Assembly: GCF_044647545.1 (NCBI RefSeq)
Contig: NZ_CP172818.1
Strand: one strand, 5' to 3'
From: Escherichia coli
GTDB lineage: Bacteria; Pseudomonadota; Gammaproteobacteria; Enterobacterales; Enterobacteriaceae
DNA length: 64,000 bases
Part shown: in pieces, positions 30,901-35,892 of the stretch
Position numbering within the stretch: position 1 is the stretch's first letter
Layout: every line of letters starts with the position of its first letter
Made by a program: the position numbers

Positions 30901-33900
30901 GCATTTCACGATCGGGATGGGAAAACAGTCCCCAGACATGGCTCATACCGCCCCCTTGTTGTGAGTTCATGAACCTGACAGTTCAAGTATAAGTCAGCTT
31001 GTGATTATTTTTTGTTCGCTCATGTAATTTGCACCGTCTGATGTACGTCCTTTTTCAGCGTGAATGATTCACAGGGTGTATGCTTACAGGCAAGCAAAGG
31101 GAGACAGACTGTCCTATGGATCTCAATACACTCATCTCACAATATGGTTATGCCGCGCTGGTTATCGGTAGCCTGGCGGAAGGTGAAACCGTGACTTTGC
31201 TGGGAGGCGTTGCGGCACATCAGGGGCTATTAAAGTTCCCGCTGGTGGTACTTTCTGTGGCGCTTGGCGGCATGATTGGCGACCAGGTGCTTTATCTGTG
31301 CGGGCGGCGGTTTGGCGGCAAGCTGTTACGCCGTTTCTCGAAACATCAGGATAAAATTGAGCGGGCGCAGAAACTTATCCAACGCCATCCGTATCTGTTT
31401 GTCATTGGTACGCGTTTTATGTATGGCTTTCGGGTCATTGGCCCGACGCTGATTGGTGCCAGCCAGCTGCCGCCGAAAATCTTTCTGCCGCTGAATATTC
31501 TCGGCGCATTTGCCTGGGCGCTGATTTTTACCACTATCGGTTACGCTGGTGGGCAGGTGATTGCGCCGTGGTTGCACAATCTCGACCAGCATTTGAAGCA
31601 CTGGGTCTGGTTGATTCTGGTCGTGGTTCTGGTGGTAGGCGTGCGCTGGTGGCTGAAACGGCGCGGGAAGAAAAAGCCGGATCATCAGGCGTAAAGCAGT
31701 TGCCACAGATAAGCATTCACGCCACATCCGGCACCGGATGTTCCATGCCTGATGCGACGCTGGCGTGTCTTATCTGGCCTAACCCATTGAAATAACCACG
31801 CGCCTCACTGCGCTATTCTGGGTTGAACTGCGGATTCGCCAACATAAAGCCGCCATCCACTATCAACGACTGCCCGGTGGTGTAATTTGCGCCCTCCGAA
31901 CAAAGCCATACCACCAGGCTGGCAATCTCATGCGTTGTGCCAAAACGTCGCAAGGGAATCGAAGGCTCCGCGTCAGGCTTCACGTCGCCGCCATCCATGC
32001 CGTTCATTGGCGTGGCGATCGCCCCAGGTGCGACTGCGTTCACCAAAATTTTATGCCTGACCAACTCCAGCGCCATTGCTTTGGTTAACCCGCCGAGCGC
32101 ATGTTTAGCGGCTGTGTAGGCGCTGGCATCCGGCAGCGGCGTATGTTCATGTACCGATGTAATGTTGATGATGCGACCGCCCTGCCCTTGCTTCACCATC
32201 TGGCGGGCAGCAATTTGCGAGCATAAAAATGCACCATCGACATCAACGGTAAAAATCTTGCGCCACTCATCGAAAGCCATATCAAGAAACGGCGCTTTGG
32301 TCATTGCGCCCGCATTATTCACCAGCACATCGATGCGCCCCAGTCGATGAATGAGTTTCTCCAGCGCCTGCGCACCTTCTGGCAGATTACCGAGATCCAG
32401 CTGCACGATCTCCGCACGTACGCCGTGGCTAACCACCTCACGCGCAGTATCTTTTGCCCCTTCTTCATCTGAGTGCCAGGTAATACCAATATCAAACCCC
32501 TGCTGCGCCAGTAATAACGCGCACTCTTTGCCGATCCCCGAATCGGAGGCGGTAATTATCGCGACCTGTGCCATCGAGTTCTCCACTTAACGCTGAATAA
32601 ATGTTAAGTATAGAAGGCGCATATCATCAGCGTTTGTAACCCCCGCCCAGCGCACCGGTGAGTTGAATGGAGGCATCCAGCCACTGCCCTTGCAATAACA
32701 AGCCATTGGCCCGCTCACGCAGCGCGGGGATTCTGGCTTCGCTGACGCGGGAACCAGCAATGATGCCCGCGTTAAAGCGCGCCTGCGCAAGACCTACCAC
32801 ACGCAAGGCATCGTGCTCAATTTGCGCCTGATGCTGGTTTTTCTCCGCCAGTGTCTGAACCTGGCTGGCCGCCCGCGCCACGTCATTCACCGCTTCAACC
32901 ACCGCTTTGTTGTAGCTGGCGATAGACAAGTTGCTTTCGGCTTTTGCGATATCGAGGTTGGCGTTAAGACGACCACTATCGAAAATGGGTAGCGTCAGGC
33001 CTGCCGTAACGCCCATTTGCTGCGCGGAATGACGGAACAGATCGCTTAAGTGCAACGCATCCTGTTGCAGGAAGGCCATCAGGTTGATGTCAGGATAAAA
33101 TGCCGCTTTTGCCGCATCAATGGTGCTTAGCGATGACTCAACGTACCAGTGCGCCGCCTGCAAATCTGCCCGCCGCGCCAGTAAGGAGTACCCCAGTTCA
33201 TCAGGAAGCTGGCTTGCCACTTTCGGCAACGCGACCGGATTAAGCTTCAATGCCTTTGTCTGGTGATTTGTAAGTGCGCTTAACCGTGCCTCAATAATTT
33301 TCATTTTCCCCGCGACATCGTTGAGCTGCTGCCGGGTTTTGCTGGCATTAATATCGGTTTCCACACCTTCAACTGAAGAAGTAATCCCGTTCTGATATAG
33401 CTGGCGATCGGTGGCGATAATGGTGTTCTGCTCTTTTTCGATTTGCTGCAAGACCGTGTTTAACGCCGCCTGGGTTTGCCACTCCCAGTACAGGCGGGCT
33501 ACGCTGCCAGCCAGCAATTGGCGGGTTTGCTCGCGTTCCGCCACCCGTGCTTTAACCGTACCCAGGCGAGCAGTTACCTCCGCCCGATTCTTTCCCCAGA
33601 TATCGAGATGCCAGCCCGCCGTTAAGCCAAAAGTACCGTTGGTGTACCACGGACCGGTCGTACCTGCGGCAGGATCGTTCAAAGCAAACGGCCCCATTAA
33701 CCCTTCTGCCGACATTTTTTGCCGCTCCATATCCGCAGAAAAGTCGAGCTGTGGACCATCCTGAGTGGCAACTGCCTTCGCCTGGGCTTCAGCCAGCTGA
33801 ATGCGCTGTTCAGCCACCTGCATATCCGGTGCGTTCTGTAGTGCGTTATTAATTAATGAGGTGAGTTGATTATCGTGATACTCCAGCCACCATTGGCTGT

Positions 33901-35892
33901 CTGGCCAACCATTTTTCAGCGCCGTGGGTAATGCGGTGTCAACTTGTGCCGCGGGTGTTTGCTGGCTTAACGCCTGGCGGGTTTCATGCATAGGCGCACA
34001 CCCGGCTAGCATCAGTAACAGCGGAAAACAGGCGATGGCTGGATAAAAAGAATCACGATTCATGGGGGAATAATCAGGTAAGAAAAGGTGCGCGGAGATT
34101 ACCGTGTGTTGCGATATATTTTTTAGTTTCGCGTGGCAATACATCAGTGGCAATAAAACGACATATCCAGAAAAATATACACTAAGCGAATGATATCTTC
34201 CGATTTATCTTAATCGTTTATGAATAGCGGCAAAGGGCTTCGTTTTTTCCTATACTTATTCAGCACTCACAAATAAAGGAACGCCAATGAAAATTATACT
34301 CTGGGCTGTATTGATTATTTTCCTGATTGGGCTACTGGTGGTGACTGGCGTATTTAAGATGATATTTTAAAATTAATTAATGTCATCAGGTCCGAAAATA
34401 ACGAGAATATTTCAGTCTCTCATCCTGTTGCGCTCCTGTCATGTGCATTGCTTCATATAATCACTGGCGCAAGGAGCGCGCAGGGGGCGGCCAATCGCCG
34501 CCGCCCCCTGCACCCCCGGGCTCTGGCGAACAAAATCGCCGCTGCGCGGTGCCCTCGGCTTATCCCTTACGGCTACCGGGTCGGGCGCGAGGTAACATCC
34601 CTGTAAAACGCGCCCTCAGCCCACATCCATGTGGGCTGCCCCGGCCTTCAGGGAACGCCTCGGCAATTTTGACGCCACCAAACAACCGTGCGGCCTATTG
34701 ATAAAGAGCTAACACATTGTCAAAAAACATCACTATGGTTTTTTAGAGTTTATCGATATCAATTGCCTGAATAGCCCTTGCAATATCAGGGGAATTATTC
34801 AACATCCGAACATGCTGAAATAATTCTGTTGCTTCATCGTATTCTTTACGCAAATAACTCAACCACTGTTTAATCCGCGCTACGTGATATAACCCGGTAT
34901 CGCCCTGCTTTTCCAGACGGGTATATTTTTGCAGCAAAGCAACTACCTCCGGCCATGGCATTCGCGGTTCGTTATATTTTACCACCCGGCTCAGGTTGGG
35001 AATATTGAGCGCCCCGCGACCAATCATCACTGCGTCGCATCCGCTGATCGTCATGCATTGTTGCGCACTCTGCCAGTCCCAGATTTCACCGTTGGCAATC
35101 ACCGGAATATTCAGCCGCTGGCGAATCTCGCCAATCGCCTGCCAGTCAATATGCTCCGCGCGGTAACCCTGCTCTTTTGTCCGCCCATGTACTACCAGCT
35201 CCGTAGCGCCAGCCTGTTGCACCGCATCGGCGATTTCAAATTTCTTCTCACCGCTGTCCCAGCCCAGACGCACTTTTACGCTGACGGGCAAATGCGCCGG
35301 TACAGCTTCGCGCATCGCTTTTGCACCCTGATAGATGAGTTCAGGATCTTTGAGTAACGTCGCCCCACCGCCGCTACCGTTAACCGTTTTCGACGGGCAG
35401 CCGCAATTGAGATCCACGCCCCAGGAACCTAACTCGACCGCACGGGCGGCATTCTCTGCCAGCCATTGTGGGAACTGACCTAACAACTGCACGCGCACCA
35501 GCGTACCAGATGGTGTCCGGCTGGCGTTTTGTAGCTCAGGGCAAATGCGATGAAAGACTTTTACCGGCAGCAGTTGATCCACCACGCGGACAAACTCGGT
35601 GATGCACAGATCGTAGTCGTTAACTTCGGTCAGTAATTCCCGCACCAGAGAGTCAAGTACACCCTCCATCGGAGCCAGTAACACACGCATATCATCACCC
35701 GCAAAAAAATGAGGCGCTATGTTAGCGCCTATGGTCAGCGGATTAAAGGTCTGCAAAGAGGGATTGCTGCAAACTGCAATCCCTCTCTATGCTTGATGTA
35801 TGCCTGAGTTCGCTGCTCATTGCGTAATGCCCGGGAGCGAAAAAATAAGCGCTGATTTCTTAATGTGATCGGTAGCACGTTTTACGAATTAA

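What the first reader, a model, noticed from the sequence alone, without database searches (positions are those of the whole stretch)
32627..34063. mdtQ outer-membrane efflux lipoprotein is intact
The track gives a continuous 478-aa ORF with a lipobox. From memory this gene is a frameshifted pseudogene in K-12, so together with the intact molR this points to a non-K-12 background.
Basis: partly seen in the sequence, partly recalled or inferred. Interest (0 to 1): 0.35.

Follow-up and report, generated by a model that had tools for sequence, protein, structure and literature searches.

The report
Intact mdtQ outer-membrane channel gene
This is the normal, uninterrupted copy of mdtQ, a poorly studied E. 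coli outer-membrane efflux-channel gene; only the K-12 laboratory lineage carries it broken by a one-base deletion, so finding it intact is ordinary and simply shows the DNA is from a non-K-12 strain.

Summary
Confirmed and ordinary. Window 32627..34063 (minus strand) is a 478-codon ORF with a lipoprotein signal (lipobox LAGC, Cys22). It matches NCBI's MdtQ equivalog model end to end (1023 bits, cutoff 650). The DNA is 100% identical to mdtQ of ST648-type strains (RefSeq protein WP_022645876.1).

K-12 MG1655 mdtQ is annotated "frameshifted". The lesion is one A lost from an A5 run (window 33912-33916, codons 50-51), giving a stop after 69 aa. Allele-specific probes find the A4 allele in 355 of 5426 complete E. 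coli genomes. Of the 60 listed, 59 look like K-12 laboratory derivatives and one is an oddity. The A5 allele is in 4940 genomes, so the intact state is the species norm.

Pairwise dN/dS among six alleles is about 0.03-0.13, so the gene is maintained by selection. The window is not K-12: it is 97.6% identical to K-12 around mdtQ but at least 99.8% identical to ST648-type strains. molR is also intact here and broken in K-12.

The function is inferred: an orphan TolC/OprM-type exit duct with no known partner pump. In passing, the yohP-dusC spacer (TRIP1c repeat) was replaced by the alternative allelic form relative to the closest relatives.

The parts
32627..34063 (-). mdtQ (yohG) coding sequence, 478 codons plus stop; intact
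   Evidence: ORF and translation. NCBIfam NF008524 MdtQ equivalog, 1023.5 bits against cutoff 650, residues 1-478 to model 1-478. Pfam OEP in two stretches. 100% identical to annotated mdtQ of FDAARGOS_497 / MS6198, protein WP_022645876.1.
33998..34063 (-). Lipoprotein signal peptide (residues 1-21) and lipobox L-A-G-C, with the acylated Cys22 (codon at 33998-34000); +2 residue is Ala
   Evidence: Regex match to [LVI][ASTVI][GAS]C at residues 19-22; sequence read directly. Outer-membrane sorting is inferred from the established rule that Asp at +2 retains lipoproteins in the inner membrane.
33912..33916 (-). A5 homopolymer (T5 on the + strand), gene nt 148-152, codons K50-N51: the site where K-12 has lost one A
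   Evidence: Alignment to K-12 MG1655. A4 probe matches 355 genomes and A5 probe 4940 of 5426.
31813..32574 (-). yohF (SDR oxidoreductase), 52 nt downstream of mdtQ on the same strand; possibly co-transcribed
   Evidence: RefSeq annotation in identical strains. No terminator-like site was found between the two genes. Co-transcription is an inference only.
34064..34287 (.). Divergent intergenic region between mdtQ and yohP; it presumably holds the unmapped mdtQ promoter. No Shine-Dalgarno-like motif in the 20 nt before the ATG
   Evidence: Sequence read directly. The only promoter-like hit on the minus strand lies further upstream, at 34386..34359 inside or just after yohP. The review states the mdtQ promoter is not experimentally confirmed.

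Best explanation
The ORF is the intact, ancestral allele of mdtQ (formerly yohG). MdtQ is the orphan fourth outer-membrane factor of E. coli, alongside TolC, CusC and MdtP. By homology, it is made as a prolipoprotein, lipid-modified on Cys22 and sent to the outer membrane. There, three copies would form a TolC/OprM-type channel: a beta-barrel pore plus a long periplasmic alpha-helical tunnel. That tunnel would dock onto a periplasmic adaptor and an inner-membrane pump to expel substrates. The partner pump and the substrates are unknown, and none is encoded nearby. The K-12 laboratory lineage lost one A from an A5 run at codons 50-51, which truncates the protein to 69 aa. This window comes from a non-K-12 strain of ST648 type that keeps the normal gene. 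Shown here: gene identity, intactness, the exact K-12 lesion, allele frequencies, purifying selection, and the non-K-12 background. Inferred: lipidation, trimeric channel architecture, and an efflux role.
For: Full-length match to the MdtQ equivalog model, 1023.5 bits against cutoff 650, and to the NodT-type OMF subfamily TIGR01845, 272 bits against cutoff 210. Two OEP repeats. Sequence homology over residues ~51-477 to solved OMF channels: VceC 1yc9 at E 2e-39, then OprM, SilC, CusC, CmeC, MtrE, OprN and OprJ. Lipobox LAGC with Cys22. Conserved synteny yohF-mdtQ-yohP-dusC, as in K-12. K-12 is annotated 'frameshifted', with A5 to A4 and a stop after 69 aa. A4 allele in 355 of 5426 genomes; 59 of the 60 listed look like K-12 laboratory derivatives by name and size. 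A5 allele in 4940 of 5426. Seven fetched non-K-12 genomes all annotate an intact mdtQ. dN/dS is 0.03-0.13 in 14 of 15 allele pairs. Apart from the indel, the K-12 copy has no further stop or indel in the downstream frame, so the lesion is recent. [quoted passage not shown]
Against: Nothing contradicts the identity or the intactness. For function the evidence is thin. No adaptor or pump gene lies anywhere in the 64-kb window. There is no recognisable Shine-Dalgarno motif before the ATG and no mapped promoter, so expression may be low or conditional. The only reported phenotype is slightly raised susceptibility of a null mutant to puromycin, acriflavine and tetraphenylarsonium (Sulavik 2001, as cited). 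It is small, and I could not verify the strain (the paper is not held). If that strain was K-12, the deleted gene was already broken. mdtQ is also independently truncated in some Salmonella Typhi and Paratyphi A isolates and in at least one E. coli (STEC379, 40% coverage), so the gene is dispensable in some settings.
Confidence: 0.93

Rival explanations
1. The ORF is intact but is a silent or decaying gene in this strain. It looks open only because no disabling mutation has happened yet, and it contributes nothing to the cell.
For: No Shine-Dalgarno-like motif upstream. No confirmed promoter. No partner pump nearby. The gene has been lost repeatedly in K-12, in some Salmonella Typhi and Paratyphi A isolates, and in at least one STEC. 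The reported null phenotype is marginal.
Against: dN/dS of about 0.03-0.13 across phylogroups. The gene is full length in 5390 of 5426 genomes, with the A5 allele in 4940. The review counts it in the core genome of the phylogroups. A neutral 1.4-kb ORF would not stay open across the species.
Confidence: 0.1
2. The difference from K-12 is a sequencing or assembly artefact at a homopolymer, either in the window or in the K-12 reference, and not a real biological difference.
For: The lesion sits in a 5-nt homopolymer, a common site of sequencing error.
Against: 355 independently assembled genomes share A4 exactly; 59 of the 60 listed look like K-12 derivatives. 4940 other genomes share A5. A 5-nt run is short for systematic error. 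NCBI's pipeline flags the K-12 copies consistently as frameshifted.
Confidence: 0.01
3. The window is a K-12 derivative in which mdtQ reverted or was repaired.
For: None beyond the shared gene order. The yohP-dusC spacer next door is 371/372 identical to K-12's, but that spacer form is shared at 99% or more by 2771 genomes.
Against: 33 substitutions in mdtQ relative to K-12. 97.6% identity over the surrounding 9.4 kb. molR-yehI is only 89-95% identical. The window is 99.8-100% identical to ST648-type strains over almost all 64 kb.
Confidence: 0.005

Closest known systems
MdtQ / YohG of E. coli (NCBIfam NF008524; RefSeq WP_022645876.1; O157:H7 UniProt Q8X659)
   Same: It is this protein: a full-length equivalog match, an identical RefSeq protein in ST648-type strains, and the same yohF-mdtQ-yohP-dusC synteny.
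   Different: Nothing differs. Relative to the K-12 pseudogene, it has the A5 run intact and six amino-acid substitutions in the conceptual repaired translation.
MdtP (YjcP) of the mdtNOP (sdsRQP) operon, the closest E. coli paralogue
   Same: Same NodT-type OMF lipoprotein architecture. It is the second-best NCBIfam hit, at 354.8 bits over residues 17-477.
   Different: The score is below the MdtP family cutoff of 597, so this is a paralogue and not a member. mdtP sits in an operon with an adaptor and a pump, whereas mdtQ stands alone.
Solved OMF channels: VceC (1yc9), OprM (1wp1), CusC (3pik), SilC (9rmm)
   Same: Homologous over nearly the whole mature protein, E 2e-39 to 1e-21. OprM, CusC and SilC are also N-terminally lipidated OMFs (established knowledge).
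   Different: Each of those has a defined partner system (VceAB, MexAB, CusBA, SilBA). MdtQ has none known, and no MdtQ structure has been solved.
TolC (TIGR01844)
   Different: Only 53.6 bits against a cutoff of 225 and about 12% identity. TolC is not a lipoprotein (established knowledge).

Membership tests
MdtQ (NCBIfam NF008524 equivalog) | Whole-protein HMM score above the curated cutoff, end-to-end alignment | tested here: met
   1023.5 bits against cutoff 650; residues 1-478 align to model positions 1-478.
MdtQ (NCBIfam NF008524 equivalog) | Orthologous chromosomal position (between yohF and yohP/dusC) | tested here: met
   Same gene order as K-12 MG1655 and as annotated ST648-type genomes.
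Outer membrane factor, NodT/OprM-type lipoprotein subfamily (TIGR01845; Pfam OEP PF02321) | HMM score above the cutoff and two tandem OEP repeats | tested here: met
   TIGR01845 at 272.2 bits against cutoff 210.05. PF02321 at 104.8 bits against cutoff 22, in two stretches.
Outer membrane factor, NodT/OprM-type lipoprotein subfamily (TIGR01845; Pfam OEP PF02321) | N-terminal lipoprotein signal with a lipobox cysteine | tested here: met
   L19-A20-G21-C22 after a hydrophobic stretch; +2 residue is Ala. Actual acylation was not tested.
Outer membrane factor, NodT/OprM-type lipoprotein subfamily (TIGR01845; Pfam OEP PF02321) | Trimeric 12-stranded beta-barrel plus alpha-helical periplasmic tunnel | not tested
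Outer membrane factor, NodT/OprM-type lipoprotein subfamily (TIGR01845; Pfam OEP PF02321) | Works with a periplasmic adaptor and an inner-membrane transporter | not testable with these tools
   No adaptor or pump gene anywhere in the 64-kb window. The review states the function and partner are unknown.
MdtP family (NCBIfam NF007390) | Whole-protein score above the curated cutoff | tested here: not met
   354.8 bits against cutoff 597: a paralogue, not a member.
TolC proper (TIGR01844, type I secretion OMP) | Whole-protein score above the curated cutoff | tested here: not met
   53.6 bits against cutoff 225.15.

The most novel reading that the evidence does not exclude
Essentially only the K-12 lineage lacks MdtQ, so six decades of K-12 efflux genetics may have missed a second general exit duct. 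In wild strains such as this ST648-type one, intact MdtQ could serve one or more adaptor-dependent pumps independently of TolC. It could then contribute measurably to drug, bile or metabolite export, making tolC-null phenotypes differ between K-12 and clinical isolates.
Probability: 0.15. Interest if true: 0.45.

Novelty: already known. Interest (0 to 1): 0.08.

Why it matters
It matters little beyond bookkeeping. The result correctly marks the window as non-K-12 and reminds us that the K-12 reference is the exception at this locus: mdtQ is a conserved core gene under purifying selection, and its function remains unknown. Anyone transferring efflux or outer-membrane conclusions from K-12 to clinical lineages such as ST648 should remember that those strains carry a fourth potentially functional TolC-like channel that K-12 lacks.

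Tried and rejected
1. Longer ORF from TTG at 34153 (508 aa). Rejected because the family model and RefSeq both start at the ATG at 34063.

2. Recurrent slippage at the A5 run. One non-K-12-sized genome (EcN_Sk) carries A4. Its mdtQ is 0 mismatches from K-12, and no other genome shares its configuration. So it carries K-12-type DNA and is not an independent event.

3. In-place inversion of the TRIP1c element upstream of yohP. Rejected: the reverse-complement alignment is only 88% identical in the core, and the outer ~50 nt on each side do not match in either orientation. This is an allelic replacement. An intragenomic donor is also unlikely, because genomes lacking form 1 at this locus match only positions ~40-320 of it elsewhere.

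4. Curated RNA family in the mdtQ-dusC region. Only sub-threshold Rfam hits were found.

5. Strain background of the published yohG-null phenotype. Sulavik 2001 (PMC90435) is not in the library.

6. Structure prediction and large protein-database searches were deliberately not run. The equivalog match, the hits to solved structures and the published AlphaFold comparison already settle the family.

7. Promoter and terminator scans gave no more sites than the shuffled controls, so they do not locate the mdtQ promoter.

Full report
**Observation**

The window's minus strand carries an open frame from the ATG at 34063 to the stop at 32627-32629, 478 codons. The mechanical ORF list extends it upstream to a TTG at 34153. 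However, NCBI's MdtQ equivalog model aligns residues 1-478 to model positions 1-478 (1023.5 bits, cutoff 650), and RefSeq annotates the same 1437-nt CDS in strains with identical DNA.

The N-terminus MNRDSFYPAIACFPLLLMLAGC has a lipobox L19-A20-G21-C22 followed by Ala. Pfam finds two OEP repeats. The protein also passes the NodT-type outer-membrane-factor subfamily cutoff. It is homologous over nearly its whole mature length to solved channels: VceC, OprM, SilC, CusC, CmeC, MtrE, OprN and OprJ.

**Comparison with K-12**

In K-12 MG1655 the orthologous CDS is 1436 nt and is flagged as a pseudogene, "frameshifted". Alignment shows 33 substitutions and a single indel. The window has A5 at gene nt 148-152 (CTG AAA AAT, codons L49-K50-N51; T5 at window 33912-33916), and K-12 has A4. 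The K-12 reading frame then ends after 69 residues, 50 native and 19 out of frame. The rest of the gene remains open in the shifted frame, with no further lesions. That pattern indicates a recent, single inactivating event.

**How common each state is**

Each probe had the indel at its centre, so megablast's 28-nt seed cannot bridge the other allele.
- The K-12 A4 probe matches 355 of 5426 complete genomes. Of the 60 listed, 59 look by name and size like K-12 laboratory derivatives (MG1655, BW25113, DH5alpha, DH1, C600, J53, JM109, TG1, MC4100, O16:H48 mouse-gut isolates and so on).
- The A5 probe matches 4940 genomes.
- 5390 genomes contain at least 80% of the gene.
- All seven non-K-12 genomes I fetched annotate an intact mdtQ with a protein accession.

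The single non-K-12-sized A4 genome, EcN_Sk, has a mdtQ with zero mismatches to K-12, and no other genome shares its configuration. It therefore carries K-12-type DNA and is not an independent slippage. The intact gene is the species norm, and the frameshift is essentially a K-12 lineage marker.

**Selection**

Nei-Gojobori dN/dS between the window and K-12 (with the A restored) is 0.065, from 27 synonymous and 6 non-synonymous differences. Among six alleles from different backgrounds, 14 of 15 pairs give 0.03-0.13. The gene is under purifying selection across E. coli. [quoted passage not shown]

**Background of the window**

- The 9.4 kb around mdtQ is 97.6% identical to K-12.
- The 24 kb centred on mdtQ is about 99.9% identical to a set of strains including one named ST648, MS6198, ECONIH1 and FDAARGOS_497. 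Only about 68 genomes reach 99%.
- Against MS6198, the window is identical from 9554 to 34372 apart from one SNP. Elsewhere it differs only in a few patches.
- molR (1481..5269) is an uninterrupted 1262-aa ORF here and in MS6198. In K-12 it is "frameshifted; internal stop".

The one caveat is that intactness excludes K-12 but does not otherwise identify a background.

**How it most likely works**

This part is inferred from family membership. The protein would be made as a prolipoprotein, cleaved and tri-acylated at Cys22, and sorted to the outer membrane (Ala at +2). It would assemble as a trimer into a TolC/OprM-type duct that couples to a periplasmic adaptor and an inner-membrane transporter.

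Which transporter is unknown. No adaptor or pump gene occurs anywhere in the 64-kb window, and the review describes mdtQ as encoded independently, with function not elucidated and promoter unconfirmed. There is no Shine-Dalgarno-like motif just upstream of the ATG, and consensus scans did not exceed shuffled controls, so expression may be low or conditional. yohF follows 52 nt downstream with no terminator-like site between them, so co-transcription is possible but untested.

The only reported phenotype is slightly raised susceptibility of null mutants to puromycin, acriflavine and tetraphenylarsonium. It comes from Sulavik 2001, as cited. I could not read that paper, so I could not check whether a K-12 strain, already frameshifted, was used. 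Independent truncations in some Salmonella Typhi and Paratyphi A isolates and one truncated E. coli copy show the gene is dispensable in some niches.

**Comparison with what is known**

This is MdtQ itself, as RefSeq protein WP_022645876.1, and not merely something like it. Its closest paralogue is MdtP (354.8 bits, below that family's cutoff of 597). It is not TolC proper (53.6 bits against cutoff 225). Nothing about the gene, its intactness or the K-12 lesion is new.

**Noticed in passing**

- The yohP-dusC spacer (34372-34742) contains the described TRIP1c repeat (PMC10888264) and is dimorphic. The window has a 371-nt form that is 371/372 identical to K-12's. Its otherwise identical relatives have a 387-nt form with the repeat core in the opposite orientation (88% identical as reverse complement) and unrelated outer ~50 nt.
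- The window's spacer form is in 3308 genomes, and 2771 of them are at 99% identity or more. By comparison, only 66 genomes reach 99% for the neighbouring mdtQ. The other form is in 2001 genomes, mostly at 95-99%. None of the 25 best ST648-type matches listed covers the spacer, and all three ST648-type relatives examined (FDAARGOS_497, MS6198, WWCOL-236) carry form 2 or the 387-nt spacer. So the patch looks like a short recombination import, with an adjacent SNP at 34749.
- molR-yehI is only 89-95% identical to K-12, with a stretch (about 3066-3445) too diverged to align.

**Verdict**

Interest is low.

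Noticed in passing
window 34372-34742 (yohP stop to dusC stop; TRIP1c core ~34420-34700): The spacer holding the described TRIP1c repeat is dimorphic. 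The window has the 371-nt K-12-type form (371/372 identical to MG1655). Its otherwise identical ST648-type relatives have a 387-nt form with the repeat core reversed (88% identical as reverse complement) and unrelated outer flanks. The window's form is at 99% identity or more in 2771 genomes, far more uniform than the adjacent genes. The other form is in 2001 genomes, mostly at 95-99%. It looks like a short recombination import into this strain.
   Followed up: partly
window 1481-8923 (molR and yehI, DUF4132 proteins): molR is intact (1262 aa), but molR-yehI is only 89-95% identical to K-12, against about 97.6% around mdtQ. A stretch at ~3066-3445 is too diverged for blastn to align. This is a fast-evolving pair of genes next to the yehLMPQ (MoxR-type ATPase / VWA / SWIM) cluster.
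   Followed up: partly
L004 (NZ_CP172017.1, strain EcN_Sk, 1762336-1765377): A 5.06-Mb genome labelled EcN_Sk carries a frameshifted mdtQ with 0 mismatches to K-12, but with the non-K-12 spacer form. No other genome shares this combination, which suggests a K-12/other-strain mosaic.
   Followed up: partly
window ~41829-41839 (between preA and mglC): The window lacks roughly 20-35 nt of a GC-rich, REP-like sequence that MS6198 has at this point. WWCOL-236 seems to share the shorter state, judging by its gene coordinates.
   Followed up: no
window 9334-9479 and 61499-63528: Two clusters of differences from MS6198, in otherwise near-identical sequence. One is in the yehK-yehL spacer; the other is about 30 SNPs plus a 1-nt indel across psuT-psuG. 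They look like recombination patches.
   Followed up: no
window 31701-31779 (+), downstream of yohD: Sub-threshold Rfam match to naRNA4 (37.5 bits against gathering score 59.5, E 3e-4), probably a REP-type element. There is also a weak TwoAYGGAY-like hit inside TRIP1c at 34534-34685.
   Followed up: no
window 57958-59222 and 61146-62409: The two NupC/NupG-family nucleoside transporter genes (nupX and psuT) cross-match at about 79% DNA identity, so they are paralogues about 3 kb apart.
   Followed up: no
H40, NZ_CP091024.1 strain STEC379: Only the last 40% of mdtQ is present there, annotated 'TolC family protein': an independent disruption of the gene outside K-12.
   Followed up: no
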